A DNA stretch of 64,000 nucleotides from Candidatus Omnitrophota bacterium (GTDB lineage Bacteria; Omnitrophota; Gorgyraeia; Gygaellales; Profunditerraquicolaceae), in NCBI GenBank assembly GCA_035402765.1, contig DAONDX010000002.1:65173-129172 (forward strand), written 5' to 3'. Positions within the stretch are counted from its first letter, which is position 1. Each line of letters begins with the position of its first letter. The position numbers and the translations under genes are program-made. Positions 21,003 to 39,984 of this stretch are shown piece after piece. The notes under the pieces were generated by a model. That model was not told the origin of the DNA and made no database searches. It worked only from the letters and a program-made list of their open reading frames with translations.

Positions 21003-21013
21003 GGTTTTGTTAT

Positions 21014-21082: not shown

Positions 21083-21086
21083 TGAT

Positions 21087-21881
21087 CTATTTACCCTCTA
21101 GCTTCTTTACCAACGCCAGCGCAATTTTAATTAAATTGCCTTCGGCCATATAATAAAGCGGATTCATAAAACCCATTTCACCGGTAACCACATTATCACT
21201 AACGGCCAGTATTGAACAAGCCTTGATATTATAGGTCTGACAAATCGTCAAAAGCGTTGAAGAAACCATGTCCACGGCTCTGGCGCCTTCCTTGCGCTTA
21301 GCTTCCACAATTTCGCGGGTCTCCCGCAGTAAAGCATCCGTAGTCCAGGCTTTGCCCCGGTGCACCCTTAAACCCATGCCGGTGGCAATCTCAAATAAAA
21401 GATCAGAGAGATTTTTATTACTCGCCGTCTTAAAATCTTTATCCACATAATACGGAGTAACTCCGTCGCCGCGGATAATTTCATCCACGATAAATAAATC
21501 CCCGATTTTAATATCCTCATCCAATGATCCGCAGGTACCCACGCGGACAATGTTCTGAATTCCGGCATTACACATTACTTCGGTAGTAATTGATGTATCC
21601 GTAGAGAATCTTCCGCCGTTAATCCCGGTGACCTTAATCCCTTCATAAGTTCCGGTGTACATAGTATATTCCATAAAGGAAAAATTCTTCATGGGATTTT
21701 CCAGTTTTTTCATTAAAACATCCAGGCGGTCGCGCGGCCCCGGTACAATCGCATACTTGCCTACATCCTGCGGCCTAAGCTGGACCATTGCCGTTAAATC
21801 TTTCCCTGTCAAATGAACTGCTTTTTGCATTTCCATATTAACTATTCCTCTCCTTAAATGAGCGGACAACTTACGGAGCAA
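21087..21881 (-). CDS. Purine/5'-methylthioadenosine/5'-deoxyadenosine nucleoside phosphorylase (PNP/UDP family 1)
   Basis: 264 aa. DeoD-like blocks (YTGTYEGIKVTGINGG; VRVGTCGSL; phosphate-binding region). True start may be an internal Met (MEMQK/MQKAV). Confidence 0.75.
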   Translation of the reverse strand: MLRKLSAHLRRGIVNMEMQKAVHLTGKDLTAMVQLRPQDVGKYAIVPGPRDRLDVLMKKLENPMKNFSFMEYTMYTGTYEGIKVTGINGGRFSTDTSITTEVMCNAGIQNIVRVGTCGSLDEDIKIGDLFIVDEIIRGDGVTPYYVDKDFKTASNKNLSDLLFEIATGMGLRVHRGKAWTTDALLRETREIVEAKRKEGARAVDMVSSTLLTICQTYNIKACSILAVSDNVVTGEMGFMNPLYYMAEGNLIKIALALVKKLEGK

Positions 21882-22184: not shown

Positions 22185-23096
22185 TTAAAGAGCAAACAGC
22201 TTTGCTAAATTCCCCCCCAGAATATTCTCCTTCTCCTCCTGGGTCAAATCCAAATCCTTAACCGCCTTAATACCTGCGGCAATATCCTGCTTAGCCGGCC
22301 AATCGCTGCCCCACAGAATACGCCGGGGCCCCATTAAATCTAAACTTAATAAAAAGTTAGCGCGGGTGGTGTCTCCGCTGGTATCCACATAAATATTTTT
22401 AAAATAATCCGACGGCAAACCTTGCAGATCTTTGACAAAATTCATCTTGCGCAGCATCTGATAGGTCGCATCAAAGCGCTGTTTTAGATAACAGATCGCC
22501 CCGCCGAAATAGGCAAAGATAAATCTGGTCCTGGGGAACTGCCTCAACACATCCGACATTAAAAGCTTGCCGGCTGAAATCGTAGTATCAAAAATATATT
22601 CAACTACCGGGGTAAGCAGCGGGTCCTTAACCCGTTCATAACCAATCGGGTTAACAATCTGGGAGTGCACAAAAATCGGCAGGCCTTTTTCTTCCGCCAG
22701 TTTATACACCGGTAAAAACATCTTATCATCTAAATATATCCCGTTATAGCTGGAAGCCAGAGAGACCGCTTTAAAACCTAATTCTTCGGTTACGCGTTTT
22801 ATTTCATCTACCACATCAATAGAATTATCAAAAGGAAGGATCGCAGCTCCGATAAATCTTTCCGGATAAGCCTTTAAAATCTTTCCCACATTATCATTAA
22901 ACAGATGGGCCACCTGGCTGATACTGCCTAATTTTAAATGCGCATCAGAAGTCGGATAGCTTAATACCGCCCGGTCAATACCGGCCTCATCCATCATCTT
23001 AAGCTGGGCCTCAATATCCCCCCAACCCTTATGGAAAAAGTGGGCATTAGAAATTATTTCATCCGGAAGCCAGTGGGAATGTGCGTCAATTAACAT
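22185..23096 (-). CDS. Amidohydrolase-2 family metal-dependent hydrolase/decarboxylase (ACMSD-like)
   Basis: 303 aa. N-terminal MLIDAHSHW metal-binding His pair. Later HS..V and D..W motifs typical of PF04909. Confidence 0.7.
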   Translation of the reverse strand: MLIDAHSHWLPDEIISNAHFFHKGWGDIEAQLKMMDEAGIDRAVLSYPTSDAHLKLGSISQVAHLFNDNVGKILKAYPERFIGAAILPFDNSIDVVDEIKRVTEELGFKAVSLASSYNGIYLDDKMFLPVYKLAEEKGLPIFVHSQIVNPIGYERVKDPLLTPVVEYIFDTTISAGKLLMSDVLRQFPRTRFIFAYFGGAICYLKQRFDATYQMLRKMNFVKDLQGLPSDYFKNIYVDTSGDTTRANFLLSLDLMGPRRILWGSDWPAKQDIAAGIKAVKDLDLTQEEKENILGGNLAKLFAL

Positions 23097-23527
23097 TAAT
23101 GCTCCGTGCTCTTTAGTATACGCTGGGTCATCTCTTGTTCATACATCGCCTTGATCCTAAAAAATTCTTTACGGCCAAGCTCTTTGACGATGGATTTCTC
23201 AATTGCCCGCAGCTTAACATCCAGAAAAATAAACTCGGTATTTTTCCTTAAACCTTGGCACTTTAGATCCGAACAAGCCTTTTCTTTAACGGCAATATAA
23301 GCCTGAAAATCACCTACCATCTTCTCAAGCTGGGCTTTTTCATGCGGCAGATACGCGCCCATCAGCTCATTTTTAATTTCCCTTAAGATATCTTGATCAA
23401 TGTCAACTTGGGTAAACTTGCGTTCAAACTTATCAAACGCCTCTTTGGTGGTTTTGTACAGCCAGATAAGATAACGTTTCTTTAGGTTCTTAATATCCTG
23501 ATTATCCATATTTACCTCCTTGCCCAC
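23096..23527 (-). CDS. Hypothetical cytoplasmic protein
   Basis: 143 aa ORF, charged/helical. No recognisable motif. Start overlaps the stop of the upstream gene. Confidence 0.35.
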   Translation of the reverse strand: MGKEVNMDNQDIKNLKKRYLIWLYKTTKEAFDKFERKFTQVDIDQDILREIKNELMGAYLPHEKAQLEKMVGDFQAYIAVKEKACSDLKCQGLRKNTEFIFLDVKLRAIEKSIVKELGRKEFFRIKAMYEQEMTQRILKSTEH

Positions 23528-23602
23528 GGGGGCAACACCGACGCAATACCGCTTAGCGTCGGGTGATTCCGATTAGCGCCAGGCGTTAAACTACAATTGT
23601 AT

Positions 23603-24214
23603 TTATTTCTTTACCAATTCCACCGTATCAAAATAAAGGGTACCTTTGGTTCCGGGAAGCGGCTCAAATTGAAACATCCTGATCGGAAAATCCATTACTC
23701 CGTTTTGATCGGCATCCTGCGGCTGCCAATCATCACGCACGATGAATTTATCAAAACTAACCACTACTTTTTTCCAGCCGGCAAAATCGTCATCGGCGAT
23801 AAACCGCCAAATCTCACCCCCGGTATCTTTGATATCAAAAGCGATCTTAGCTTTTGAATTTGTCCCGTAGACATAAAAAGATACCGCGCTGTATTCTTCC
23901 CATTTGATATCGGAAGGCTTGACCGCCCAGTTAGCATTCTTGGCATCTAACCCGGCGCCGCGGGCAATATACATATAACCACCGCTGACCGCATCATAAT
24001 CAACCTTCAAAGCCTGTTTACCGCTATTTTTAATATCGCTGGCTCCGATCACCTGGATACTTGAACCATTGCCGGCGCCAAAATCCACGGTGCCGTCAGC
24101 GCCGCCGGAAACCACAATTTCAAAATCATCAAGCAAGACATTGCTCTCGGCTGCCCAACCGGCGCCCGAGATTAATAAAACTAAAGCTGCAGTTAAAAAT
24201 CCTGTTTTTTTCAT
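23603..24214 (-). CDS. Secreted protein of unknown function
   Basis: 203 aa. Clear signal peptide (MKKTGFLTAALVLLISGAGWA). Beta-rich composition. Confidence 0.45.
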   Translation of the reverse strand: MKKTGFLTAALVLLISGAGWAAESNVLLDDFEIVVSGGADGTVDFGAGNGSSIQVIGASDIKNSGKQALKVDYDAVSGGYMYIARGAGLDAKNANWAVKPSDIKWEEYSAVSFYVYGTNSKAKIAFDIKDTGGEIWRFIADDDFAGWKKVVVSFDKFIVRDDWQPQDADQNGVMDFPIRMFQFEPLPGTKGTLYFDTVELVKK

Positions 24215-24264: not shown

Positions 24265-25071
24265 TTATTTTCCCGGATGCTGCTGTTTATAAGGTATCAC
24301 CGGAGCAACCCAGGGCGTTTGCTGGTTAATTACCGCGATCTCTAAAGGGCAGACATTAGCCGGGACGGTTAAAGCAAAACGCACCGCGTCTTCAATGGCC
24401 TGCGTGCTCATCAAACGCGAGGTATCCGTACTGATATTCTGAAGTTTACCGGTTAAGTCCGTATCGGTAACCCCGGGTAATATCGAAGTAACTTTAATCC
24501 CGTGGTCGCGCAATTCCCAAAACAAACCCTTGGAAAATGCCCTTAAGCCTACCTTAAGCGAGCTGTAAACGATAAAGGTCCTGGGCAGCGGGTCACATAA
24601 GGTCGAACCGGAGACCATATTAATGATCGCTCCGCTTTTATTCTTGATCATATCATTAATCACCAGGCGGATCATCCGCACATAGCCCAAATAATTAGTA
24701 TGCGCTAATTTCTCGAAATCCTCGATCGGCTGATCCTGAAAAGGATATTGGCTGGATACCCCGGCATTATTGATCAGGATATCGATCTGGCCAAACTTCT
24801 CTTTGGCGCTTTTGACTAAATTTTCCAGATCTTCTAATTTTGTCACATCGCAAGCTACCGGCAAAACCTGGACTTTAAATTTTTTGGCGATCTCATCGGC
24901 AGTCTCTTTTAAAGGGCCCAGATTACGCGCCCCGATCACTAAATTAACCCCAAGACTGGCGGCGGTACAGGCCAAGGCTTTGCCAATTCCACGGCTGGCA
25001 CCGGTAACAATTGCTGTTTTTCCTTTTAATTCTAAACTCATACCTCTCCTCCTTATGTACGTACATAACAC
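24265..25071 (-). CDS. Short-chain dehydrogenase/reductase (candidate polyketide ketoreductase)
   Basis: 268 aa. TGASRGIG Rossmann motif, NNAG, catalytic YxxxK (YSSLK). First gene-distal member of the PKS operon. Confidence 0.85.
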   Translation of the reverse strand: MLCTYIRRRGMSLELKGKTAIVTGASRGIGKALACTAASLGVNLVIGARNLGPLKETADEIAKKFKVQVLPVACDVTKLEDLENLVKSAKEKFGQIDILINNAGVSSQYPFQDQPIEDFEKLAHTNYLGYVRMIRLVINDMIKNKSGAIINMVSGSTLCDPLPRTFIVYSSLKVGLRAFSKGLFWELRDHGIKVTSILPGVTDTDLTGKLQNISTDTSRLMSTQAIEDAVRFALTVPANVCPLEIAVINQQTPWVAPVIPYKQQHPGK

Positions 25072-25108: not shown

Positions 25109-26242
25109 TTAGCCCCGGGTGTATATTTTATTTCCGACTACCCGGCTAAACATTAATAAAATCAGCAGCCCCGAACCAAACACTAAAAATCCTAAACCAA
25201 AACTTTTCTGCATGATCAAACCGCCCAAGCTCACTCCTATGCCGCCGGCAATAAAACGCACGGCGCTGTTTAGGCTTGCGGCTTCATTGAGAAGCTCCGC
25301 CGGCAGATCCGTAAGCATAGTGGATAAACCCACATGATTAAAAGTCCAGCCCATGCCCCAAACAATCATCACGACAGCCAATAACCCCACCGGCAACTTG
25401 ATCAAGAGCAGAAAAACACAGACGATCATCGAAAGAATGCCTAAATTTACCACTTTTAACCGGCCCAGGGAATCTGCCAGATGGCCTCCCCAAACTTCCC
25501 CGAATATCCCGGCTAAGCTGGTCAGAGTGATCAGCATGCTGATTAAAAACTGGTTTAAATTTAATTGCGTCGAGAAATAAACTCCCAGCCATTGCTGCAC
25601 AGCATGATAAATCAAACTTATCAGGAAAATATAGCCGAAAATTTTAATGACTTTTTTATTTTTAAACGCCTCGAAATAACCCAGGCGGAAATTTCCGGCA
25701 TCCGCTTTAAAACTGGGCAAATAAAAATACATAAAAATCCAAAGTATAAATCCACAGAGCGCCGGAATGAGAAAAATCAACCTCCAGGAAATTATCCCGC
25801 TTAAAAACAGGCCCAATAAAGAAGCTATGAATGTCGAGCCAAAAAATAAACCAAGATAACGGCCGCGCTTAGCCGGCTTTAGGTGTTTGGCAATCACGAT
25901 CAAGCCCAGAGGAATAACCGAGGCTCCAAAAAATCCCATCATAAACCGGGCCGCAAAAAGCACAGAGATATTACCCGCTGCGGCTGCCAAAAGATTAGCC
26001 AGGGAAAACAAGAAGATGCAGAATAATTCAACCTTGCGGGCATCAAATAAGCGTACCAACGGACCATACAGCAGCGCCGCCAGCCCGTAAGGAAGCATAT
26101 ACAACCAGATAATTTTGCCGACCACAAATTGAGAAAGAGCAAAATCCGCGGCAATTGAAGGAACCAGCGCAGCAGAGGCTGCCACATTAAACGATAGAAC
26201 CGCTCCTTCTAAACAAAGGATAATAAAGGTAAGTGCGCTCAC
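25109..26242 (-). CDS. MFS transporter (candidate product exporter)
   Basis: 377 aa, ~12 predicted TM helices. MFS loop motif (LFDARKV). 4-bp overlap with the upstream aromatase/cyclase gene. Confidence 0.8.
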   Translation of the reverse strand: MSALTFIILCLEGAVLSFNVAASAALVPSIAADFALSQFVVGKIIWLYMLPYGLAALLYGPLVRLFDARKVELFCIFLFSLANLLAAAAGNISVLFAARFMMGFFGASVIPLGLIVIAKHLKPAKRGRYLGLFFGSTFIASLLGLFLSGIISWRLIFLIPALCGFILWIFMYFYLPSFKADAGNFRLGYFEAFKNKKVIKIFGYIFLISLIYHAVQQWLGVYFSTQLNLNQFLISMLITLTSLAGIFGEVWGGHLADSLGRLKVVNLGILSMIVCVFLLLIKLPVGLLAVVMIVWGMGWTFNHVGLSTMLTDLPAELLNEAASLNSAVRFIAGGIGVSLGGLIMQKSFGLGFLVFGSGLLILLMFSRVVGNKIYTRG

Positions 26243-26679
26243 TTAGCCGCTTCTTTTTCAATAATCGCTTTAAAGATCTTCAGGTTATGCTGCGAGCCTT
26301 CGTTAATAAAACCTTCGATCTGTTGGTCATTAAATTTGGCTTTGGCATCCATATGAAAATGCTGAATCCAAGTTAATTCAATGCCCCCGGTAACCGGCGT
26401 GTAGAGCCAAATAATCTTCATATACTCAAAAGGAAACAGCGGATCTTCACGCTGCGAATAAGTAAAAAACTTATCTTTAAACAAAAGCCTCCAGGATTGC
26501 CAGGTTTTATCATCCTCATCGGTTAGACGAAAAGTAATTTTATTCGCCTCTTTCTTGACCAGCTCGGCTTTTTTATATTCCGTGCCGAATAATTCCGTCC
26601 AGCGCGGGATATCATTGGAAATATCAAAAACTAAATCGTAAGGCGCCTTAATCACTATCGAATTACAGGTATGTCCCAT
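26239..26679 (-). CDS. Type II PKS aromatase/cyclase of the SRPBCC family (TcmN N-terminal / WhiE-ORFVI / ZhuI-like)
   Basis: Track ORF 26239-26886 trimmed to the internal start MGHTCNSIVIKAPYDLVFDISND (ATG 26679-26677), preceded by GGGGGGATTAA Shine-Dalgarno. Pattern NSIVI.AP.DLV.D..ND...W..LF.EY..AE......FRL..DED..W.SW......Y..W.Y....GG..L.W.Q.F.M is the ARO/CYC polyketide_cyc2 signature as I recall it. Confidence 0.7.
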   Translation of the reverse strand: MGHTCNSIVIKAPYDLVFDISNDIPRWTELFGTEYKKAELVKKEANKITFRLTDEDDKTWQSWRLLFKDKFFTYSQREDPLFPFEYMKIIWLYTPVTGGIELTWIQHFHMDAKAKFNDQQIEGFINEGSQHNLKIFKAIIEKEAAK

Positions 26680-26892
26680 TTTAATCCCCCCAGTATTTTG
26701 CTCTTTTAAAATTAGCTGTTTACGCGGGATGACTTGGCTTGATTCTGAGCGGGGCGTGGAGGCAAGGAGTGGGCATGGTTCCGTCACTTTTATGTCAGAG
26801 AGCGACGCCAGCCGACCCGAGCGAAGTTTTGCCACGCTGGGGTAAAACGAGCGCCCCCGCGAAGAACAAGACAAGACAGACCGCAATAATTA
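26680..26892 (-). promoter_or_regulatory. About 210-bp GC-rich structured intercistronic leader inside the PKS operon
   Basis: No conserved coding signal (the track's N-terminal extension MRSVLSCSSRGRS... is low-complexity). Several local hairpins (e.g. AGTTTTGCCacgctgGGGTAAAACg). GC content visibly above the flanking genes. Confidence 0.3.
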
Positions 26893-27693
26893 TTAATCTA
26901 AAAGAGCAACTACCCTTGCCCAAGCCGCTCCGGTATTTTTGATGCGGATAGGCATACAAAGCACCTTAAATCCAAAATCCGGCAAGCTTTCTAAATTTGC
27001 CAACCGCTCGATATGGATAAATTCTTTTTTTCTTCCGTAGAAATGCGCCGGATAAAATGTTTTAGGGTCTTTGGTCTTTAAGAATTCACTGAGCATAAAT
27101 CTGTAGGGCCGGTCAATCCCCATCGTATCTACGCCAAAGATCTTGACCCCCTGGCCTAATAAATATTCGATGGCGCAAGGGCTGACTCCGGGATAATCGG
27201 CAAAATATTTAGGGCCGCCGTATAACTTATCGGCTCCGGTCTGCAGTAATACGATATCTAAAGGTTTAAGCTGGTAATTGATCTTGGTTAAAGCTTCGCA
27301 AAGGTCCTGTTCCTTGATTACTTCATTTGGTTTTTTATGCCGCAGGTCTAATTTTACTCCGGGCTGATAACAATATTCCAGGGGTATCTCATCGGCGGTT
27401 TTAGAGGCGCGATTTTCAGATTGAGAACCGTAATGGAAGGAATAATCCAGGTGCGTACCGATGTGCACCGGAGCATGGACAATCTCCAAAGAGAGAAATT
27501 CTTCATCGGGCAGCTCTTCTTTTTTCACGATGCGGCCGCCCAATGCGTATTTAATCTTGCCCAAAAGAGTTTTGCCCATGATTACCCGGTTAAACTTTTC
27601 TACCCCGGCTTTATGGGTTACTCTTTCGATAGCCACTTTGTGTACCTCAAAAGCGGTCTCATCAATGGGTAAGCTTAAATCTACTATCTTCAC
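26893..27693 (-). CDS. Cyclase-family protein (PF04199, kynurenine-formamidase fold)
   Basis: 266 aa. Diagnostic HxGTHxDxxxH motif (VHIGTHLDYSFH). Confidence 0.7.
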   Translation of the reverse strand: MKIVDLSLPIDETAFEVHKVAIERVTHKAGVEKFNRVIMGKTLLGKIKYALGGRIVKKEELPDEEFLSLEIVHAPVHIGTHLDYSFHYGSQSENRASKTADEIPLEYCYQPGVKLDLRHKKPNEVIKEQDLCEALTKINYQLKPLDIVLLQTGADKLYGGPKYFADYPGVSPCAIEYLLGQGVKIFGVDTMGIDRPYRFMLSEFLKTKDPKTFYPAHFYGRKKEFIHIERLANLESLPDFGFKVLCMPIRIKNTGAAWARVVALLD

Positions 27694-27761: not shown

Positions 27762-27998
27762 TCATTTTGCTAATTTGCTCTCAATATTAGCGGTGATATC
27801 ATTAATTGTGGAATTTTTGGTAATCTCTTTAGGGCTCAGCTTGACCCCGAAAGATTTCTCTAAAGCAATTACCGATTCCACCATCTCCGTAGAATCTACG
27901 CCGATACTGTCGATCAGAGTAGAACCATCTTTTAATTCCTCGATCTTTACTTTTAAGAGGTTGCTTAACACTTCTTTTACTTTTGTTTTTGTATCCAT
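27762..27998 (-). CDS. Acyl carrier protein
   Basis: 78 aa, acidic. Phosphopantetheine-attachment DS motif in GVDSTEMVESVIALE. Confidence 0.8.
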   Translation of the reverse strand: MDTKTKVKEVLSNLLKVKIEELKDGSTLIDSIGVDSTEMVESVIALEKSFGVKLSPKEITKNSTINDITANIESKLAK

Positions 27999-28012: not shown

Positions 28013-28090
28013 TATTATTTACGGGTGGCTTGGGTGTTTTCGTAGCGCGTCAGCGCAAGAAAATACCCAAGACAGGACCCGTAAATTTTA
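28013..28090. repeat. Structured intergenic repeat, copy 3
   Basis: TTATTTACGGGTGGCTTGGGTGTTTTC-gtagcgcgtcagcgcaag-GAAAATACCCAAGACAGGACCCGTAAATT. Outer arm TTTACGGG/CCCGTAAA carries G>A and C>T changes that preserve pairing relative to copies 1 and 2. Confidence 0.8.
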
Positions 28091-29548
28091 TATCTGTACT
28101 TCCCCTTTAGTCGCCGCCGCTTCCCACTTATTCAATCCGTCAATAACATCTTGAATACAAAGCTTGGCCAGCGGATCAAAATCGCTTTCCATGATCCGGT
28201 TGATCCGGCCGGGCTTTGAGAAAAATTCACGCATACACCAGGAACCTAAACGGCCCAGGTCTTCGGTGGTCAAATGATCCGTAGGGATTACCGGATGCAG
28301 AAAATCCCAAGTGCTAAAATCAACTTTTTTCGGATCAATCCACCCCTTCTTTAAAGCAATCCTCCACATCGGTGAATTGGGAGCCGGAGTGACATAACCT
28401 ACCCACAGGATATCCGGGTCCACCATGTCGGTGAACTCAAAACGCTGTTTGACGATCTCTTCGGTATCGTAATCAAACCCCATCATAATATCGGCAACAA
28501 TAGCAATATCATTTTTACGCAAGATCTCGATAGTCTTCTTAATCTGCTCGATGGTTGTGCCTTTAGCGATTCTTTTGAGCTCAGATTGTGTCGTTACTTC
28601 AATTCCAAAAACTCCCATAAACAGGCCTGCCTCTTTCATCAGCGGCAGAATTGATTCACAGTTAACCCAATCCACAGCCCTGCCTAAAGCCACCCATTTC
28701 GTTTCGATCTTTTTAGCCAACTTTAATTCACAGAACTTTTTAACCCTGGCAGCATCAACAATGAAATTATCATCCTGGATTACCACTACCTTGACTTTGT
28801 ATTTATTCTGCAAAAGTTCCAGCTCCTCAATTACCCGCTCCGGGCTTTTAGCGCGCCATTTTAAAAAATCTGACGGAGAACGCGGGTCAAATTGATCCCA
28901 TTCATAACAAAAAGTACAGGCCGAAGGACAACCCCGGGAGGTAACCATATCGACAAACGGCTTCCAATAAGTATGCCCGGAATATTTATCCATGGGGAAC
29001 AAGTCATAGGCCGGTAAAGGAAGCTTATCCAAATCTGTCATCAAGGGCTTATGCGGCCCCATCACGATCTGCCCATTAATGCGCGAGGTGACTCCGCCGA
29101 CATCTTTGAGCGGTTTATTTTTATCGATCGCTTCAATTAAATCCCCAAAAGATTCCTCTTCCCCCATCACGATAAAATCAACTTCCGGAATTTCTTCTAA
29201 GGTCGGAATGGGCATGGCGGAATACCAAAGCCCGCCCAAAATGATCTTTATTTTAGGCAGCGCTTTTTTAATTCCGATCGCCGCATCTTTAAAATGACGC
29301 AAAACTCCGTATCCGCCGTAGCCGTGCAGCTGCTCACCCATCACCACAATATCAGGGTTTATATTTTTTACCTGTTGGATCAGCTGCTCCATGGGTATCT
29401 GTTCGGCTTTAGCGTCGATTACCGCTACATCTTTATAACCTTTCTCCCGGATATAAGCAGCCCAATGCGCATATAACTGATTCGGAGACCGGTGAATTCC
29501 ATGCGTGGCCCAGGCGCCGACTTTAGGCATCACAAATAGTATTTTCAT
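28088..29548 (-). CDS. Class B (cobalamin-binding) radical SAM enzyme
   Basis: 486 aa. N-terminal B12-binding Rossmann-like domain (MKILFVMPKVGAWATHG...). Radical SAM CxxxCxxC (RGCPSACTFCYE). Confidence 0.85.
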   Translation of the reverse strand: MKILFVMPKVGAWATHGIHRSPNQLYAHWAAYIREKGYKDVAVIDAKAEQIPMEQLIQQVKNINPDIVVMGEQLHGYGGYGVLRHFKDAAIGIKKALPKIKIILGGLWYSAMPIPTLEEIPEVDFIVMGEEESFGDLIEAIDKNKPLKDVGGVTSRINGQIVMGPHKPLMTDLDKLPLPAYDLFPMDKYSGHTYWKPFVDMVTSRGCPSACTFCYEWDQFDPRSPSDFLKWRAKSPERVIEELELLQNKYKVKVVVIQDDNFIVDAARVKKFCELKLAKKIETKWVALGRAVDWVNCESILPLMKEAGLFMGVFGIEVTTQSELKRIAKGTTIEQIKKTIEILRKNDIAIVADIMMGFDYDTEEIVKQRFEFTDMVDPDILWVGYVTPAPNSPMWRIALKKGWIDPKKVDFSTWDFLHPVIPTDHLTTEDLGRLGSWCMREFFSKPGRINRIMESDFDPLAKLCIQDVIDGLNKWEAAATKGEVQI

Positions 29549-29583: not shown

Positions 29584-30816
29584 TTAAGCTGCTTTTTCAA
29601 CTACGAGCACGGAATTAATTCCGCCGCGGCCGCGTGAAATAATTAAAGATTTGTTTACCTTATATTCTTTGGCCTCGCCAGCCACATAATTTAAGCTGTT
29701 TTGAGCCGGCTTTTCTAAATTTAATGTCGGAGCAACTAAACTATGTTCCATGGTTAAAAGCGCAATGATCATATCTAAGGCGCCGGAAGCGCCCAGTAAA
29801 TTCCCAAACATCGACTTTGGACAGCTGGCCGGGATTTTCTTCAAGTTTTTGCCAAAGACTAACTCCAGGGCTTTTACCTCGGAATTATCCCAAAGTTCAA
29901 CTGCCAAGCCGTCTAAACTAATGTAACCGATCTCCTCAGGCAACGCTTTAGCATCATCCAGGGCCATTTTAATTGCCCGGGCTAATTCTTTTCCGTCGCT
30001 GGCGCAATTAATCCGATCTACTCCGTCACAGGCAGTACCATAGCCGGAAATTAACCCTAAAATGTTGGCGTTACGGCTCCGGGCGCGCTGAATACTCTCC
30101 ATCACTACGATCCCGGCGCCTTCACCGATTACAAAACCGTTGCGCTCCCGGTCAAAGGGCCGATAAGCTCCGGCCGGATCATGATTATTTTTAGAAAGCG
30201 CCCCGTAAGTATTACAACACAATAAAGCATACGGAGAAACCGGCGCTTCCATCCCTCCGCCTAAGATCATATTAAGTTTATTCTTCGCTAAAACTTTTCG
30301 GGCATAACCCAGCGCCATAAGCGAACTGGCCCGGTCACTGACCACGGTCTTGCTGAAACCTTTAATCCCGTAATAAATTGAAACCTGGCCTTGGGGAGCC
30401 GCCGGGAACCAGGCGCTGGCCATATAAGGCGAAACACCTTCCCGGCCTTCCAGGTATAAATCCCTTAATTCCGTCTCAGCGTAAAGCCAGCCGCCGATAG
30501 CATTACCTAAAAAAATCCCCACCAGATTCGGATCTTCGTTCTTGATATCGATCCCGGCATCCTGCAGCGCTAACTCCGCGGCCACCAGCGCCATATGCGA
30601 AAATGCGTCAATTTTCTTAAGCAGTCTTTCGGAGATGTGGCTATACTTTTCTAAATCATCTATTTGGCCGGCAATATGAGAAGGATAAAGGCTGGCATCA
30701 AAACGCCTGATCTCTTTAATAAAAGAACGGCCGCTTTTAATGTTGGCCCAAAACTGCCGCTTACCGATTCCCGACGGGCTGACTACGCCGATACCTGTAA
30801 TTGCAATCTTTTCCAT
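29584..30816 (-). CDS. Ketosynthase-beta / chain-length-factor-like protein (KS fold, catalytic triad absent)
   Basis: Start reassigned to MEKIAITGIGVVSPSG: ATG 30816-30814 overlaps KS-alpha stop as TAATG. Thiolase/KS fold throughout. Active-site Cys position reads VVSDRASSL (no Cys, no Gln). Both His positions replaced (YISLDGLAV; MFGNLLGASG). Confidence 0.75.
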   Translation of the reverse strand: MEKIAITGIGVVSPSGIGKRQFWANIKSGRSFIKEIRRFDASLYPSHIAGQIDDLEKYSHISERLLKKIDAFSHMALVAAELALQDAGIDIKNEDPNLVGIFLGNAIGGWLYAETELRDLYLEGREGVSPYMASAWFPAAPQGQVSIYYGIKGFSKTVVSDRASSLMALGYARKVLAKNKLNMILGGGMEAPVSPYALLCCNTYGALSKNNHDPAGAYRPFDRERNGFVIGEGAGIVVMESIQRARSRNANILGLISGYGTACDGVDRINCASDGKELARAIKMALDDAKALPEEIGYISLDGLAVELWDNSEVKALELVFGKNLKKIPASCPKSMFGNLLGASGALDMIIALLTMEHSLVAPTLNLEKPAQNSLNYVAGEAKEYKVNKSLIISRGRGGINSVLVVEKAA

Positions 30817-32096
30817 TATCCACCAAACCTTTTTAAAATAAGGGAAGAGTGTATCCCTGAAAAACCGCTGCTGGTTTTTAAAATAATATCGACCTTTTTT
30901 TGAATGGCCTGATTGGGAATATAATACAGATCGCACTGGGGGTCTTTTTCCTCCTGGTTGATCGTCGGAGGAAGAATATTTTTTTCAAAAATCAGACTAG
31001 CCATCGTCAGCTCAATGGCATTGGCCGCCGCCAGAGGATGGCCGATCATGGATTTAAAAGAACTGATCGGCAGCTTATAGGCATATTGGCCAAAAATTGT
31101 TTTATAAGCGCTGGTTTCAAAAATATCATTCATTTTCGTGCTTGAGCCGTGCGCATTAATATAATCAATTTCCGATGGTTTAACCTGGGCATCTTTTAAA
31201 GCCAAACTAATGCAAATTTCCATGGCCCGGCCGTCAGAAGGCAAATCCGTCATATGAAAAGCATTGCAGCTGGTGCCAAAACCTAAAACCTCGCAGTAAA
31301 TCGGAGCATTGCGTTTTAAGGCGTGATTTAATTCTTCCAGCACCAGAAGCCCGGCCCCTTCCCCTAAAACAAAACCATCCCTTTTATTATCAAAGGGCCG
31401 GGAGGCTTTTTGCGGTTCGTCATTATGCACGGATAAAACATTGACCACATCAAAAGCCCCGAAGGTAATCGGAGTAAGCGGGGCTTCCGCAGCACCGCAA
31501 ATCATTACATCCATCTCCGCATCCTGAATGCTCTCTAAACCAAAACCTAAAGAATCGGTACCGGCGGTACATCCGGTCGAAATAGTATTACAGTTTCCTT
31601 TTAATCCATAACGGGCGCTTAACTCAATGGAAGGAGTATTAAACATCGCCGCGTCATAAAGATCCGGGCGCACCAAAGCCGGGTTAATCGGCCGCTTGCC
31701 GTCATCGGTAACCAAAGCAAATTCTTCCTCCATATATTTTGTCCCGCAGATAGCATTAGCCAAACAAACACCCACCCGCGTTACATCTTCTTTCGAAAAA
31801 TCCAGCTGACTGTCTTCTATCGCCATTTTTCCGGCGGCTACGCCAAACTGCACGTAACGGTCCATGCGCATAGCCTCTTCATGAGTTAGACCCAATTTAA
31901 AAGGATCAAAATCCCTGACCTCGGCGGCAATCTTAGTATTAAAAACCGAAACATCAAAACCATCCACTAAACGGATCCCGGATTTACCGCTGGAAAAACC
32001 TTCCCAGGCATTCTTTTTCCCGATACCGTTGGGGGAAATTACTCCCACACCGGTAATGACTACTCTACGTTTAACCACTTTTGTTATTCCTTTCAT
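30816..32096 (-). CDS. Ketosynthase-alpha (FabF/KAS II-like, intact Cys-His-His)
   Basis: 426 aa. Active-site Cys (TISTGCTAGTDSLG). His pair (YINAHGSST; KSMIGHPLAAA). N-terminal RVVITGVGVISPNG. Confidence 0.85.
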   Translation of the reverse strand: MKGITKVVKRRVVITGVGVISPNGIGKKNAWEGFSSGKSGIRLVDGFDVSVFNTKIAAEVRDFDPFKLGLTHEEAMRMDRYVQFGVAAGKMAIEDSQLDFSKEDVTRVGVCLANAICGTKYMEEEFALVTDDGKRPINPALVRPDLYDAAMFNTPSIELSARYGLKGNCNTISTGCTAGTDSLGFGLESIQDAEMDVMICGAAEAPLTPITFGAFDVVNVLSVHNDEPQKASRPFDNKRDGFVLGEGAGLLVLEELNHALKRNAPIYCEVLGFGTSCNAFHMTDLPSDGRAMEICISLALKDAQVKPSEIDYINAHGSSTKMNDIFETSAYKTIFGQYAYKLPISSFKSMIGHPLAAANAIELTMASLIFEKNILPPTINQEEKDPQCDLYYIPNQAIQKKVDIILKTSSGFSGIHSSLILKRFGG

Positions 32097-32151: not shown

Positions 32152-32745
32152 TTATGTTTGGTTCTTTCGCGTAATCTTGAAAACAATATTTCCCCCGTCC
32201 GGACAGGTAACTGTATCAATCGTATCCGGATCAGGCATAAAGAAAAATTTAGCGCCGAAATTTAAAGCAAATAAAGCCGGAAAAGCGGTATGAAATGCCG
32301 CTCCGCAAAACCCCGGGATACATTTCAACCCTTGAGTTTCCCATTTGTCCCCTACTTTATACCCAAAAGAACATTTGCCTTTTGATTGCACTACCTCCAG
32401 GATCATTTTCTTGGGGCGGGGGCCTTGATACTCCGGATCGCGCGGGATAACTTCCAGTTTGCCGTCTTTATCCAAAATTTCAACTTTAAACTCCAGTTTG
32501 CCGCCGTCAGGACAAGTAGTCAATAACGAACGCTGATTATCGCGAAACCCGAATTTGGCGCCGAAACTTAAAGCATAAATGGTGGGAAATAAAGCATGCG
32601 CCAGGCCTAAACAAAAGTGTTTTGGCGCATGTGTAAAATCCTCCAGAATAATCACATCCCCGGCTTTATACCCGTGGTAACAGACCCCCAGAACCTGGGT
32701 CACGGTAAGTTTAAGCTTCGGGAAAGGTGTTTTTACTTCATCCAT
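32152..32745 (-). CDS. Tandem-duplicated Cys-containing domain protein of unknown function
   Basis: 197 aa of two ~95-aa repeats sharing C..GYK.GD, C.G.A..FP...AL.FGAKF.F and TCPDGG.(L/I).FK(V/I) blocks. No catalytic motif I can name. Confidence 0.5.
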   Translation of the reverse strand: MDEVKTPFPKLKLTVTQVLGVCYHGYKAGDVIILEDFTHAPKHFCLGLAHALFPTIYALSFGAKFGFRDNQRSLLTTCPDGGKLEFKVEILDKDGKLEVIPRDPEYQGPRPKKMILEVVQSKGKCSFGYKVGDKWETQGLKCIPGFCGAAFHTAFPALFALNFGAKFFFMPDPDTIDTVTCPDGGNIVFKITRKNQT

Positions 32746-32746
32746 G

Positions 32747-33751
32747 TTAAACCAGCTCCTTAGTTCTGTGGATAAGATCTTCTTTGCTAAAAAATTTATG
32801 GCTAACCTCTACTTGATGCACCATCTCTACTAAAGTTTTATTCAGGGGCGCGGTAAGATTATTTTCTTCGGCCAAACGCACAAATTCTCCGTTAATATAA
32901 TCAATCTCTGAAAGTTTACCGCGCAGGATACTCTGCAATATCGAGCCATATAACGGGTCCTTGCTTAAATTTCTCATCATCCCCGAGAAAATCTCAGCGG
33001 CATGAGCGCTGGGCAGGCTGGTAAATTTAGTGAGGTTTTCGATCGGAAATCCGGGGAGAGAAACTAAATCTATCCCGATTTTATCAAATATCTCAAAAGC
33101 CTCTTTCCAAATAGCGATACTGATCCGGCTAACGGTTAAATCTCCGAAAACATCCTGTATGCTTCTGCCCAGAATTGCCGGCAGACAATTGTTAGCATTA
33201 ACAAAGATCTTTAAATATTTCATCCCCCGCATATTTTGGCTGATGATCGCCGGGAAAGCCTTATCCAAAACCAAGCTTAAATCGAGCAGCCCTTGAGTAG
33301 GGTTAGGGTTAAAAATGCTTCCCACAATCCAGCTGCCCTCGAAATTATGCACCACTATGCCGGGTTCCAAATTAGTCGCCCCGAACATGATAATACTTGA
33401 GATAATTTGCTCAACCGGTAAATATTTGGCGGCGATCTTATCTGCCTGCACACCGTTTTGCGTAGTGAGCAATAAAGAATTCTGGATTAAATGGCGGCTG
33501 GCCGATAAAGCTGAATCAATATCCTGTGTTTTAGTCGTTAAAATTACTAAATCCGGAGCGTAGTGTAATTTATCGGAGATCTCCACATGCACCGTTTGAT
33601 TCCCCCGGACTCCGGAGATGACCAGCCCCTGCCGGCTGATCACTTCAACCCCCGGACCGCGGCCGACTAAAGTTACCTCTTCGCCTTGCTTTTTAAGGTA
33701 ACCAGCAACTAAACAACCTATAGCCCCGGGGCCGATAACTGCAATACGCAT
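32747..33751 (-). CDS. ApbA/PanE-family 2-dehydropantoate-2-reductase-like NAD(P)H oxidoreductase
   Basis: 334 aa. N-terminal Rossmann MRIAVIGPGAIGCLVAGYL. ApbA_C-type C-terminal domain. Confidence 0.75.
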   Translation of the reverse strand: MRIAVIGPGAIGCLVAGYLKKQGEEVTLVGRGPGVEVISRQGLVISGVRGNQTVHVEISDKLHYAPDLVILTTKTQDIDSALSASRHLIQNSLLLTTQNGVQADKIAAKYLPVEQIISSIIMFGATNLEPGIVVHNFEGSWIVGSIFNPNPTQGLLDLSLVLDKAFPAIISQNMRGMKYLKIFVNANNCLPAILGRSIQDVFGDLTVSRISIAIWKEAFEIFDKIGIDLVSLPGFPIENLTKFTSLPSAHAAEIFSGMMRNLSKDPLYGSILQSILRGKLSEIDYINGEFVRLAEENNLTAPLNKTLVEMVHQVEVSHKFFSKEDLIHRTKELV

Positions 33752-34020
33752 TATGGTTTAACGTTTTTTGGAAAACCGTACTTTTTATAATCAAACCCGT
33801 TTTGTCCCAACAGGCGCACCATCATACTGTAAAAAGGCGAGGGCACATCGGAAAAAAAAGCCGCTACCACATCCTGGTCGCTGACTCCGGTAGAGGAGCG
33901 TTTAGCAGCAAGCTCTTCGGCTCGGCGGCGGACTACTGATTCCGTAATTCTCCGGTGGAATACCGGGATCTTGGAAATTAATACTTTAAATTTATTTTCT
34001 GTTTCCGTTTCCCAAAACAT
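33751..34020 (-). CDS. Small hypothetical protein (first ORF of the PKS operon)
   Basis: 89 aa. 1-bp overlap with the reductase gene. Faint resemblance to stand-alone PCP_red-like small domains (KIP.F.RR...E..A...G); not reliable. Confidence 0.3.
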   Translation of the reverse strand: MFWETETENKFKVLISKIPVFHRRITESVVRRRAEELAAKRSSTGVSDQDVVAAFFSDVPSPFYSMMVRLLGQNGFDYKKYGFPKNVKP

Positions 34021-34055: not shown

Positions 34056-34081
34056 TTATATAGTAAAATTTTACTATATAA
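34056..34081. promoter_or_regulatory. Perfect 26-bp palindrome, candidate PadR operator in the PKS operon promoter
   Basis: TTATATAGTAAAATTTTACTATATAA, perfect dyad. 36 bp upstream of the first operon ORF (start 34020) and 78 bp downstream of the PadR stop. AT-rich promoter-like context. Confidence 0.45.
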
Positions 34082-34158
34082 TTTTAGTTAAGCTGGCTGC
34101 CTTTGTCAAGATAATTAATCTAATTTTAGAAATTTCAAAACCGGATTGTAGAATAAAG

Positions 34159-34674
34159 TTATATTTTTTTAAGGAGCGCGCTCAAGAAAGCAGATTCTGC
34201 TTTCAGCAGGCAAAGATTATGCTCCATTATCCGCCGTAAGGGCAGGGAATTTTCCAGTTCTTTAGAATCGCACATTTTCTTTAATCCGGAGGAAATTTTG
34301 TCCAGGATTTCTGACCTTTTCTTGAGCCGGCGGCAAGCTAAAGCCGGTTGAGCAAAACCCAGGAAAAATAAACTTAAATCCAGATTGAACTGCGGGCGTT
34401 TAAAATCCAAAAGATTTTTATTGAGCAGCATCTCAAAACGCGCTTTACCCCGGGGGGTAAGACAATAAACCAGCCTCGCCGGCCGCTTGCTTTTTTTTAC
34501 TATCTGCTTGGTAAGGAAACCTTTTTTTTCTAAAATTCTTAGAGGATAATATATGGATTTTAATTGCACGCCGGCAAATAAAGAAAGGATTTCGCGTACT
34601 TTGACTTTAATTTCATAACCATGCTTAGGCCCCTGGCGCAGGAGGCCTAAAAGAATCAGTTCCTGATCAATCAT
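34159..34674 (-). CDS. PadR-family transcriptional regulator
   Basis: 171 aa. N-terminal winged HTH LILLGLLRQGPKHGYEIKVKVREI...IYYPLRILEKKGFL. 4-bp overlap with accA stop. Confidence 0.7.
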   Translation of the reverse strand: MIDQELILLGLLRQGPKHGYEIKVKVREILSLFAGVQLKSIYYPLRILEKKGFLTKQIVKKSKRPARLVYCLTPRGKARFEMLLNKNLLDFKRPQFNLDLSLFFLGFAQPALACRRLKKRSEILDKISSGLKKMCDSKELENSLPLRRIMEHNLCLLKAESAFLSALLKKI

Positions 34675-39183: not shown

Positions 39184-39984
39184 TTAACTGCCCTTACATT
39201 TTTTGCATAACTCTAATTCCAACACGCCTTTTTTGATGTTTTTTCTTAACCGCCGGTAATTGGGCTTTCTCCAGATATCTATTAATCTGTCATTCTCAAG
39301 ATTGCCGAATTTAACCGAACTGAAATAATCCTGGCAACAGAGAATAAGATCACCGTTATAGTCGATCGCTACTTCCGGCAATAAAATTCTGCAGCGTGAT
39401 TTTTTAAACTCACAATCAATCAGGCCGCCGCGGTTGACAATATTTTTTATGCGATCATAGCTTAAGGAGGCGCCCTCATCACCGTGTATCTTTCTATATT
39501 CCAGCACCTTGCCCATATTAACCGAACGCTCTTCTGAATGCTGGGTAATCATAAAAGTATTAACGCCGCAGGCAAGCAGGCTTTTGTATAACTCAACCGT
39601 TAGAAAATCTCCGTTTGAAAAAATGCAGATTTTTGCCAAAGGTAATTTAGACCTGGTATATGCCATGAATTGCACCAGCCGTTCATCCAGAAGCGGTTCC
39701 CCGTATAAACAAGGAGAAACAATCCCGCTGAATTCAAGCTCGCTGAGCTCATCCACCAGCTTGTAAAATAGCTCTGTTTTTAAAAATTTCTTATTTTCCG
39801 CCAGCCCCCGGTCAAATTTTGAATTCGGGCAGTAAGCGCACCTTCTATTACAGACAGTTATAGTTTCGATGCTGACAAATTTAAAAAGACCACCGGGGCC
39901 GTACTCAAGCAGATGCAATAACGCTATCCTTATTCTGGTTAATTTATCGAGGATTTTCATGACCAACTGTCTTACAATTCTCAT
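39184..39984 (-). CDS. Radical SAM protein with C-terminal SPASM-like Cys cluster
   Basis: 266 aa. CNRRCAYC (CxxxCxxC). C-terminal CCQDYF...CKKCKG. Confidence 0.65.
   Translation of the reverse strand: MRIVRQLVMKILDKLTRIRIALLHLLEYGPGGLFKFVSIETITVCNRRCAYCPNSKFDRGLAENKKFLKTELFYKLVDELSELEFSGIVSPCLYGEPLLDERLVQFMAYTRSKLPLAKICIFSNGDFLTVELYKSLLACGVNTFMITQHSEERSVNMGKVLEYRKIHGDEGASLSYDRIKNIVNRGGLIDCEFKKSRCRILLPEVAIDYNGDLILCCQDYFSSVKFGNLENDRLIDIWRKPNYRRLRKNIKKGVLELELCKKCKGS

What the first reader, a model, noticed from the sequence alone, without database searches (positions are those of the whole stretch)
29584..32096. KS-alpha/KS-beta pair coupled by a TAATG overlap; the CLF carries Arg/Asp where canonical CLFs have Gln
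The KS-alpha stop (TAA 30818-30816) shares its A with the CLF start codon (ATG 30816-30814). This is the translational-coupling arrangement typical of type II PKS heterodimers. The ORF track's 121-bp overlap comes from an upstream in-frame Met. The CLF keeps the KS fold but lacks all three catalytic residues. At the active-site position it reads SDRASSL, not the Gln that canonical CLFs use for decarboxylative priming. That hints at a non-acetate starter or a different priming mechanism.
Basis: seen in the sequence. Interest (0 to 1): 0.65.

Follow-up and report, generated by a model that had tools for sequence, protein, structure and literature searches.

The report
Omnitrophota aromatic polyketide synthase KS–CLF pair
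This is a genuine ketosynthase/chain-length-factor gene pair of an aromatic (type II) polyketide synthase, sitting in an operon that is strongly conserved across the uncultured phylum Omnitrophota. The arginine replacing the textbook glutamine is real, but it is the usual state in non-actinomycete relatives and is not a sign of unusual chemistry.

Summary
The KS (30816-32096, minus strand; Cys176-His316-His353) ends in a TAA that shares one base with the ATG of a 410-aa KS-like gene (29584-30816). In that second protein the triad reads Arg162/Asp302/Asn339. Arg162 aligns without gaps to Gln161 of the actinorhodin CLF. Asp161 aligns to act Glu160, not to the Gln.

Phylogeny, shared CLF-only motifs (AWF, RGR-G-NS) and the neighbours make this a true type II PKS. 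The neighbours are an ACP, a TcmN-type aromatase/cyclase and a PF04199 cyclase. The organism is Omnitrophota. The whole operon is syntenic in at least 80 species, and KS and CLF are as conserved as AccA.

The "non-acetate starter" inference is not supported:
- Asp-Arg at this site is the commonest state among non-actinobacterial CLFs. These include the Clostridium beijerinckii/puniceum (clostrubin-producer) CLF, Ktedonobacter racemifer, cyanobacteria, myxobacteria and Paenibacillus.
- Other clades carry Ala/Gly, Ser or Asp there.
- No KASIII or acyltransferase lies in the operon.
- Clostrubin's chain is built from acetate.

Most likely Arg162 is a structural filler of the dead pocket and KSα primes by decarboxylating malonyl-ACP.

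Verdict: a new member of a known kind, of modest interest. The embedded B12 radical-SAM enzyme and a TIGR04076 Cys3His domain that travels with this clade deserve follow-up.

The parts
30816..32096 (-). KS-alpha, 426 aa, catalytic Cys176-His316-His353
   Evidence: PF00109+PF02801. Best PDB relatives are act KS 1tqy_A at 370 bits and AntD 6smo_B at 367, above FabF at 354. It clusters with act KS, ClrA and a Nitrospirota KS at 89% bootstrap. The triad is CHH in 76/77 species.
29584..30816 (-). CLF (KS-beta), 410 aa. Dead triad Arg162/Asp302/Asn339; Asp161 and Lys334; CLF motifs AWF135-137 and RGR395-397.
   Evidence: AF2 model pLDDT 90.7.
30814..30824 (-). KS stop / CLF start junction: GGTGG (30824-30820), TAA (30818-30816), ATG (30816-30814)
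   Evidence: Sequence. Overlap or abutment is conserved in about 60 of 80 species.
28088..29548 (-). B12-binding radical SAM enzyme, BchE/HpnJ-like, between the CLF and the ACP
   Evidence: PF02310+PF04055. TIGR02026 BchE scores 216 bits, below its cut-off. It is the most conserved operon protein, mean 87.3% identity.
27762..27998 (-). Acyl carrier protein, 78 aa, DS motif (GVDSTEMVE)
   Evidence: ORF; PF00550 E=4e-10.
26893..27693 (-). [quoted passage not shown]
   Evidence: Homologues sit in the same position in the Nitrospirota, clostridial and L086 loci. Equating PF04199 with OxyN-type cyclases is my own knowledge and was not tested here.
26239..26886 (-). TcmN/WhiE-type SRPBCC aromatase/cyclase (domain at residues 71-211)
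   Evidence: PDB 2rer/2rez TcmN E=5e-24 and WhiE 3tvr E=5e-21; Pfam.
25109..26242 (-). MFS transporter (present in about half of the species)
24265..25071 (-). SDR reductase (FabG-like; not specifically act-KR-like)
22185..24214 (-). CBM11-like 203 aa (23603-24214), unknown 143 aa (23096-23527), and an Amidohydro_2 protein (22185-23096). PF04909 includes aromatic-acid decarboxylases (own knowledge).
   Evidence: synteny. An Amidohydro_2 gene is also present in the clostridial and L086 loci.
32152..32745 (-). Tandem TIGR04076 domains, each with an invariant Cys3His signature
   Evidence: TIGR04076 E=9e-28; alignment A3. It travels with this PKS clade.
32747..33751 (-). ApbA/PanE-family NAD(P)H reductase
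   Evidence: Conserved upstream of the KS in Omnitrophota, Nitrospirota and L086.
33751..34020 (-). 89-aa DUF2621-like protein, first gene of the operon
   Evidence: Weak PF11084/PF08369 hits. Homologues are in L084 and L086.
34081..34109 (-). Best sigma-70-like site in the region (TTGACA-17-TAAAAT), in the PadR/p89 intergenic gap
   Evidence: It is a consensus match only; the number of such sites in the region is not above the shuffles.
34159..34674 (-). PadR-family regulator, adjacent in about half of the species

Best explanation
The two genes encode the KS-alpha/CLF heterodimer of an aromatic (type II) polyketide synthase. They belong to a roughly 12-kb operon (34020 down to 22185) that is inherited vertically in Omnitrophota.

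Proposed mechanism:
1. The overlapping stop/start couples translation of the two genes, so the subunits are made together.
2. KS-alpha (Cys176-His316-His353) carries out all the chemistry. It decarboxylates malonyl-ACP to make the acetyl primer. It then extends a poly-beta-ketone in the tunnel at the dimer interface. That tunnel is lined by the highly conserved CLF segment 105-142 (W110 ... AWF135-137).
3. The TcmN-type aromatase/cyclase and the PF04199 cyclase fold the chain.
4. The reductases, the Amidohydro_2 protein and the B12 radical-SAM enzyme tailor the product.

The CLF is catalytically dead. Arg162 is the lineage-typical, possibly ancestral, residue at the old Cys position. Together with Asp161, Asp302, Asn339, Lys334 and Arg395/397 it fills and neutralises the vestigial pocket. 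In act-type CLFs the pocket arginine sits at the second-His position instead.

Shown here: gene identities, residue equivalences, phylogenetic placement, conservation and synteny. Inferred: heterodimer formation, KS-alpha-based priming, the salt-bridge role of Arg162, and the aromatic product.
For: - Residue mapping is gap-free against FabF and act CLF.
- NJ tree: CLF clade 100% bootstrap, KS-alpha clade 89%, and KS+CLF split from FabF at 81%.
- The KS is closest to act KS and AntD.
- The operon has an ACP, a TcmN-type ARO/CYC (E=5e-24) and a PF04199 cyclase.
- The same core is found in the Nitrospirota, clostridial and L086 loci.
- Synteny holds in 80 species genomes.
- Mean identities: KS 84.8%, CLF 83.3%, AccA 81.3%. 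The tetrad DRDN is present in 80/80 species.
- Arg is widespread in non-actinobacterial CLFs.
- In all sets examined, Arg is at either the Cys position or the His2 position and never both: DRDN, DREH, EQDR, EADR, EGDR.
- GC content is flat across the operon and its flanks.
- Literature: a dead-partner heterodimer without Gln decarboxylates malonyl-ACP (bioRxiv 10.64898/2026.05.19.726425). Clostrubin's chain is acetate-labelled with a C9-C14 first ring (PMC4685789). AntE carries Asp at this site (PMC6638757).
Against: - No experiment or atomic model was available. The AF2 tool returns no coordinates, so the Arg162-Asp302 contact is only inferred from the proximity of Cys163 and His303 in FabF (own knowledge).
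- The 'one arginine' pattern rests on a few large clades and is not phylogenetically independent. Nitrospirota (D-S-N-N) has no arginine at either position, and some Arg-type CLFs lack an acid at the His1 position.
- Strict invariance of Arg162 across 80 species would also fit a functional role, such as ligand binding.
- Taking P0128 to be ClrB is inferred from the organism names and the locus, not from an accession match.
- The clostridial locus carries a KASIII about 10 kb downstream, so its priming is not settled.
Confidence: 0.6

Rival explanations
1. Losing Gln means the CLF cannot act as a KSQ-like malonyl decarboxylase. The synthase would therefore be primed differently, either by a non-acetate starter or by an accessory factor such as the TIGR04076 Cys3His protein or an acyl-CoA ligase.
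For: - Arg162 really does replace Gln161.
- A TIGR04076 domain accompanies this PKS clade and is fused to the ACP in the clostridial locus.
- An AMP-binding ligase lies at 16103-17605.
- The clostridial locus has a KASIII.
Against: - Arg-type CLFs are the rule outside actinomycetes.
- The acetate-labelled clostrubin chain comes from such a synthase (PMC4685789).
- There is no KASIII or acyltransferase in the conserved operon.
- The ligase lies beyond the conserved block and behind unrelated salvage genes.
- Gln-less dead partners still support decarboxylative priming (bioRxiv 10.64898/2026.05.19.726425).
Confidence: 0.15
2. Arg162 is functional rather than structural. Its guanidinium binds a carboxylate (of malonyl-ACP or of the growing chain) or a cofactor in a still-accessible CLF pocket.
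For: Asp161, Arg162, Asp302 and Asn339 are absolutely invariant over 80 species and 121 clusters. The dead subunit is as conserved as AccA.
Against: - The nearest non-Omnitrophota relatives at 50-52% identity carry Ser/Asn/Asn in the same core locus.
- The two His residues needed for KS-type decarboxylation are gone.
- The gating Phe positions are replaced by Arg395/397 as in act CLF, which suggests a filled pocket.
Confidence: 0.12
3. The pair is a fatty-acid-type KS/dead-KS heterodimer like anammox amxFabF2/amxFabFmut. It would work with the B12 radical-SAM enzyme on an unusual membrane lipid.
For: - KS pair, ACP and B12-rSAM lie together, as in anammox Cluster I (bioRxiv 10.64898/2026.05.19.726425).
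- AccA is next door in 30 of the 83 loci examined.
- Conservation is at housekeeping level.
- There is a weak hit to TIGR04072, the 'lipid biosynthesis B12/rSAM' model: 73 bits against a cut-off of 360.
Against: - The CLF scores 252 bits to act CLF but only 179-201 to the 9s5h chains. The KS scores 370 bits to act KS against 282 to 9s5h_B.
- The tree places both proteins inside the PKS clades.
- A TcmN-type aromatase/cyclase and a PF04199 cyclase are present. No FabZ or enoyl reductase is present.
- The gene order is KS then CLF, the reverse of the anammox cluster.
Confidence: 0.06

Closest known systems
Type II PKS KS/CLF of Clostridium beijerinckii / C. puniceum (P0128; taken to be ClrA/ClrB of the clostrubin cluster)
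   Same: - KS followed directly by CLF, with an Asp-Arg CLF.
- A PF04199 cyclase and an SRPBCC cyclase follow downstream.
- A TIGR04076 domain and an Amidohydro_2 gene are in the locus.
- Omnitrophota CLFs are among its nearest database relatives at 43-47% identity.
   Different: - Its tetrad is D-R-E-H, against D-R-D-N here.
- Its TIGR04076 domain is fused to the ACP.
- It has no B12-rSAM and no ApbA reductase.
- It has a KASIII and PPTases in the locus.
- Identity is only about 43% (CLF) and 45% (KS).
Actinorhodin KS-CLF (PDB 1TQY), the canonical type II minimal PKS
   Same: - Same fold (TM 0.92).
- Same gene order.
- CLF-only motifs AWF and RGR-G-NS.
- An acidic residue before the site, Asp at the first-His position, and Lys retained.
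   Different: Gln161 against Arg162. Arg against Asn at the second-His position. 35% identity. The act cluster has an act-type KR and oxygen-dependent tailoring (own knowledge).
AntD/AntE of Photorhabdus (AQ-256 anthraquinone; PDB 6SMO)
   Same: A non-actinomycete type II PKS whose CLF also lacks Gln; it has Asp there (PMC6638757). The KS scores 367 bits.
   Different: AntE is shorter (371 aa) and carries Asp, not Arg. The accessory set differs (own knowledge).
Anammox amxFabF2/amxFabFmut heterodimer (PDB 9S5H)
   Same: An active KS plus a dead KS partner, an ACP and a B12 radical-SAM enzyme in one cluster. Decarboxylative priming without Gln has been shown for it experimentally.
   Different: It is FAS-derived rather than in the CLF clade. 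It has Val/Thr at the Cys position, the reverse gene order, a FabZ and a phytoene-desaturase-like partner, and no cyclases.
Ktedonobacter racemifer minimal type II PKS (expressed in E. coli; bioRxiv 10.1101/2020.05.18.102780)
   Same: Its CLF (P0143 cluster) reads SDRASG at the site, so it is Arg-type.
   Different: 39% identity. Both His positions are retained (D-R-H-H). It comes from a different phylum and the product is unknown.

Membership tests
Type II PKS KS-alpha/CLF (minimal PKS) | Two adjacent KAS-II-fold genes, the first with Cys-His-His and the second without the catalytic Cys | tested here: met
Type II PKS KS-alpha/CLF (minimal PKS) | Each subunit falls inside the KS-alpha or the CLF clade, apart from FabF | tested here: met
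   NJ tree with 100 bootstraps: CLF clade 100%, KS-alpha clade 89%, split from FabF 81%. This is a distance method on 47 sequences only.
Type II PKS KS-alpha/CLF (minimal PKS) | A dedicated ACP in the cluster | tested here: met
   27762-27998, PF00550 E=4e-10, DS motif.
Type II PKS KS-alpha/CLF (minimal PKS) | Aromatase/cyclase partners for a poly-beta-ketone | tested here: met
   TcmN/WhiE-type SRPBCC E=5e-24; PF04199 cyclase.
Type II PKS KS-alpha/CLF (minimal PKS) | Physical heterodimer that makes a polyketide of defined length | not testable with these tools
   Needs co-expression and assay. No multimer modelling was available.
Canonical actinomycete-type CLF | Gln at the position of the KS active-site Cys (act Gln161) | tested here: not met
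   Arg162. The feature is also absent in the Ktedonobacteria, Nitrospirota, clostridial and AntE CLFs (PMC6638757), so it defines a subgroup and not the family.
KSQ-type decarboxylase (loading-module logic) | Gln at the Cys position plus both catalytic His residues retained | tested here: not met
   Arg162, Asp302, Asn339.
[quoted passage not shown] | KS-CLF-ACP followed by TcmN-type and OxyN-type cyclases, in a non-actinomycete | tested here: met
   The order here is KS-CLF-(rSAM)-ACP-PF04199-SRPBCC. There is one SRPBCC gene rather than two.
Anammox amxFabF2/amxFabFmut FAS heterodimer | FabF-derived pair clustered with FabZ, and closest sequence relatives among the amxFabF proteins | tested here: not met
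   Scores to the 9s5h chains are lower than to act KS/CLF. No FabZ is present.
Highly reducing type II PKS (Iga11/Iga12, ApeO/ApeC) | KS/CLF with a KR+DH set giving polyenes, and closest relatives among Iga/Ape | tested here: not met
   The KS scores 245 bits to 6kxd_A against 370 to act KS. There is no dehydratase gene, and aromatic cyclases are present.

The most novel reading that the evidence does not exclude
Three linked ideas remain open.

1. The operon may not be an ordinary sporadic secondary-metabolite cluster. It could be a core, vertically inherited pathway of Omnitrophota that makes an aromatic, quinone-like polyketide without oxygen. In that reading the BchE-like B12 radical-SAM enzyme supplies oxygen-independent oxidation or C-C chemistry. 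In the Nitrospirota relatives a U32-family protein plus AFOR sit in the locus instead.

2. The TIGR04076 Cys3His domain, which is fused to the ACP in the clostridial locus, would be a previously unrecognised obligatory subunit of this old PKS clade.

3. Asp-Arg would be the ancestral state of the CLF pocket. The textbook Gln161 would then be a late actinomycete innovation, and CLF-mediated decarboxylative priming would not be a founding feature of type II PKSs.
Probability: 0.15. Interest if true: 0.75.

Novelty: new member of a known kind. Interest (0 to 1): 0.36.

Why it matters
For the finding as written, little changes. Type II PKS KS-CLF pairs in Candidatus Omnitrophica are already listed in a 2023 catalogue (PMC10132072). 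The Arg-type CLF is shared with synthases that have already been studied.

Three things still matter:
1. The glutamine taught as the CLF hallmark holds only for an actinomycete subgroup. This weakens Gln-based priming as a general model and warns against using it as a membership criterion. I found no paper that says so.
2. In Omnitrophota the synthase evolves as slowly as AccA and keeps strict synteny across at least 80 species. That is unusual for a polyketide cluster and suggests a physiologically important product in a phylum with no cultured representatives (own knowledge).
3. The embedded B12 radical-SAM enzyme and the TIGR04076 domain are concrete, testable leads to oxygen-free tailoring and to a possible new PKS subunit.

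Tried and rejected
- Printing the act CLF alignment by querying the PDB with a CLF fragment failed, because 1tqy_B was not in the top five. I solved it by querying with the recalled act CLF sequence, which matched 1tqy_B exactly.
- Structural discrimination between CLF and FabF did not work. The Foldseek PDB search gave TM 0.94-0.95 to many FabFs and 0.92 to 1tqy_B, so the fold does not decide. No coordinates are returned, so I could not measure Arg162 contacts.
- The AF2 model of the TIGR04076 protein from a single sequence was unusable (pLDDT 39). I ran no fold search on it.
- The first Biopython tree run timed out. I redid it with numpy distances.
- Literature searches turned up nothing on Arg or Gln161 in CLFs, on an Omnitrophota PKS or on a TIGR04076 function. 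The catalogue's supplements held as text do not contain 'Omnitrophica'. One search was rejected for a bad term.
- I considered and rejected three identities: an anammox-type FAS heterodimer, a highly reducing type II PKS, and a KSQ decarboxylase (see the membership tests).
- Recent horizontal acquisition was rejected on flat GC and conserved flanks.
- The SDR is not specifically act-KR-like. The PF04199 protein has only weak hits among solved structures, to isatin hydrolases.
Full report
**Observation.** Read on the minus strand, the junction is GGTTTGGTGGATAATGGAAAAG. The KS stop TAA occupies 30818-30816 and the next ATG occupies 30816-30814, so they share one A. A GGTGG stretch lies three bases upstream of the ATG.

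The ORF finder's longer frame (29584-30936) begins at an in-frame GTG. Homologues are 408-413 aa and align from residue 1-3, so the 410-aa protein starting at ATG 30816 is the real product.

The upstream protein (426 aa) has the full Cys176-His316-His353 triad. For the downstream protein I used a HMMER alignment to Listeria FabF and BLASTP to the actinorhodin CLF. I had first verified that CLF sequence as identical to PDB 1TQY_B. Both alignments are gap-free around the site: TVVSDRASSLMALGYAR aligns with ALVAEQAGGLDALGHAR.

The residue equivalences are:
- Arg162 matches the KS Cys and act Gln161.
- Asp161 matches act Glu160.
- The first His is Asp302, and act also has Asp there.
- The second His is Asn339, where act has Arg.
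- The Lys is kept.

Only the Arg sits at the Gln position. No alignment I made puts Gln or Cys there.

**What it is.** Several lines place the pair inside the type II PKS family.
- Both proteins carry the two ketoacyl-synthase Pfam domains.
- The KS's best solved relatives are the act KS (370 bits) and AntD (367 bits), ahead of FabF (354 bits).
- The second protein shares motifs with act CLF that FabF and KS-alpha lack: AWF at 135-137, RGR-G-NS at 395-401, and Asp at the first-His position.
- I built a neighbour-joining tree of 47 sequences with 100 bootstraps. All CLF-like proteins, including act CLF, the clostridial CLF and this one, form a clade at 100%. The KS-alpha group (act KS, the clostridial KS, a Nitrospirota KS and this KS) forms a clade at 89%. 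KS plus CLF separate from FabF at 81%.
- The AlphaFold model is confident (pLDDT 90.7). It dips only at residues 110-140, the helix-loop-helix at the dimer interface. The fold matches FabFs and act CLF equally well, so structure alone does not discriminate.

**Context.** All neighbours are on the same strand. In transcription order they are:
- a PadR regulator;
- an 89-aa DUF2621-like protein;
- an ApbA/PanE-type reductase;
- a tandem TIGR04076 protein;
- the KS and the CLF;
- a B12-binding radical-SAM enzyme (BchE/HpnJ-like, below every curated cut-off);
- a 78-aa ACP;
- a PF04199 cyclase;
- an SRPBCC protein whose domain hits the TcmN aromatase/cyclase at E=5e-24;
- an MFS transporter;
- an SDR;
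- two small unknown proteins;
- an Amidohydro_2 protein.

[quoted passage not shown] Here a radical-SAM gene is inserted between the CLF and the ACP.

The best promoter-like match in the region lies in the PadR/p89 gap. GC content is flat across the operon and its flanks. The rest of the window is housekeeping.

**Organism and conservation.** The 120 best database relatives are all Omnitrophota proteins of 80-92% identity. A scan of one genome per species found 552 loci, and the best 80 are 80 different Omnitrophota species. In essentially every locus long enough to judge, the gene order from p89 to Amidohydro_2 is the same.

Over 29 species that also have AccA next door, mean identities are:
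- KS 84.8%
- CLF 83.3%
- radical-SAM enzyme 87.3%
- TIGR04076 protein 82.3%
- AccA 81.3%

The KS triad is intact in 76 of 77 species and the CLF tetrad D-R-D-N is present in 80 of 80. The stop/start overlaps or abuts in about 60 of 80 species. This is a vertically inherited operon under strong constraint.

**Is the arginine special?** No. Among 50%-identity cluster representatives, about 17 of about 30 CLF-like proteins have Asp/Glu-Arg at the site. The others have Lys, Ile, Met, Thr, Ala or Cys.

Named Arg-type CLFs include Clostridium beijerinckii/puniceum, Ktedonobacter racemifer, Archangium violaceum, Paenibacillus and deltaproteobacterial MAGs. I take the clostridial protein to be ClrB on the basis of organism and locus.

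With the clostridial CLF as query, the tetrads were as follows:
- D-R-D-N, 84 sequences: Omnitrophota and their 57-59% relatives.
- D-R-E-H, 15 sequences: clostridia, Leptolyngbya, Rhizonema and Bacillus cytotoxicus.
- D-S-N-N, 12 sequences: Nitrospirota, 50-52% identical to this CLF.

A large Ktedonobacteria clade has E-A-D-R or E-G-D-R. AntE has Asp at the site (PMC6638757). So Gln characterises an actinomycete subgroup only.

In every set I examined, an arginine is found at either the Cys position or the second-His position, and never at both. Nitrospirota has it at neither. This fits a buried charge-balancing role, but it rests on few independent lineages.

**Mechanism.** I commit to the ordinary model: a co-translated heterodimer in which KS-alpha does all the chemistry and the CLF shapes the tunnel.

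Priming by KS-alpha-catalysed decarboxylation of malonyl-ACP has a precedent. The anammox amxFabF2/amxFabFmut heterodimer has a dead subunit carrying Val or Thr, and the dimer still makes acetyl- and acetoacetyl-ACP (bioRxiv 10.64898/2026.05.19.726425).

Clostrubin is made by a synthase with an Arg-type CLF. It is labelled throughout by acetate and closes its first ring C9-C14, as expected for a TcmN-type cyclase (PMC4685789).

The conserved Omnitrophota block contains no KASIII or acyltransferase. So the hint of a non-acetate starter has no support, although it is not excluded. The clostridial locus does have a KASIII about 10 kb away.

**Relatives outside the phylum.**
- A Nitrospirota locus keeps DUF2621-like proteins, ApbA, tandem TIGR04076, KS, CLF, ACP, cyclase and SRPBCC. 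It lacks the radical-SAM enzyme and instead has a U32-family protein and an aldehyde:ferredoxin oxidoreductase upstream.
- A 59%-identical relative (L086) has the radical-SAM homologue upstream of the block and also a class I methyltransferase.
- In the clostridial locus the 175-aa ORF after the CLF is a TIGR04076 domain fused to the ACP, and a second free copy lies nearby. The domain has invariant Cys22, Cys45, His50 and Cys78.

**Novelty and score.** KS-CLFs in Candidatus Omnitrophica are already listed in a public catalogue (PMC10132072), and the Arg-type CLF is shared with synthases already under study. The pair is therefore a new member of a known kind.

I found no paper that comments on the Arg state, on the Omnitrophota operon, or on TIGR04076 as a PKS partner. 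These side observations carry most of the remaining interest.

Overall interest is 0.36. The most novel reading not excluded is a core oxygen-free aromatic polyketide pathway with a new subunit and an ancestral Arg-type CLF. I give that reading about 15% probability.

Noticed in passing
window 32152-32745 (-); L084 8127-8675; L085 11260-11787 and 15656-15946: The uncharacterised TIGR04076 domain (invariant Cys22, Cys45, His50, Cys78) accompanies this PKS clade in three phyla. It is a tandem copy upstream of the KS in Omnitrophota and Nitrospirota. In the C. beijerinckii locus it is fused to the N-terminus of the ACP, and a second free copy lies nearby. It may be an unrecognised PKS subunit.
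   Followed up: partly
window 28088-29548 (-); L086 1-618: A BchE/HpnJ-like B12 radical-SAM enzyme sits between the CLF and the ACP and is the most conserved protein of the operon (mean 87% identity). A 52%-identical homologue lies upstream of the block in a 59%-related cluster. The Nitrospirota relative lacks it and has a U32-family protein plus AFOR instead. This may reflect alternative oxygen-free tailoring.
   Followed up: partly
window 17605-21881 (-): Directly downstream of the operon lie four genes: a nucleoside phosphorylase (PNP_UDP_1), an MtnA-type 5-thioribose-1-phosphate isomerase, a class II aldolase fused to an SCP2 domain, and an aldehyde dehydrogenase. The set resembles a 5'-deoxyadenosine/methylthioadenosine salvage ('DHAP shunt') route, which would dispose of radical-SAM by-products. 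The phosphorylase and isomerase are syntenic in about 35-40 of the 80 species.
   Followed up: partly
window 33751-34020 (-); L084 2774-4946; L086 629-910: The first operon gene is an 89-aa protein with weak DUF2621 and PCP_red similarity. It is conserved with the KS-CLF in three lineages. In the Nitrospirota locus a similar weak DUF2621 signal is also recorded for the U32-family protein.
   Followed up: no
window 1-64000: Almost every ORF of 120 aa or more is on the minus strand, and GC skew is negative in every 3-kb bin (-0.03 to -0.17). The window therefore lies in a single, strongly co-oriented stretch of chromosome.
   Followed up: no
window 39184-39984, 15060-16091, 51087-52274 (-): There are three further radical-SAM genes in 64 kb: a SPASM-domain enzyme next to two large TPR proteins, an RlmN-like enzyme, and a lysine-2,3-aminomutase-like enzyme next to two D-Ala-D-Ala-ligase-family genes.
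   Followed up: no
window 389-1882 (-) and 62615-63988 (-): Two long ORFs (497 and 457 aa) have no Pfam match at E<=1e-4.
   Followed up: no
L008, L017, L028, L033, L040, L044, L045 and others: Several species-representative genomes that carry this Omnitrophota operon at 80-91% identity are titled 'uncultured Planctomycetales bacterium' in their records. These are probably taxonomic mislabels.
   Followed up: no
window 29584-30816 (-), residues about 105-142: The only low-confidence part of the CLF model (pLDDT 57-67) is the helix-loop-helix at the dimer interface. It nevertheless holds many invariant residues (W110, E114, G124, P130, A133, A135, W136, F137, Q142). The same segment is reported as disordered in the anammox dead-KS homodimer crystal, which suggests it orders only in the heterodimer.
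   Followed up: no
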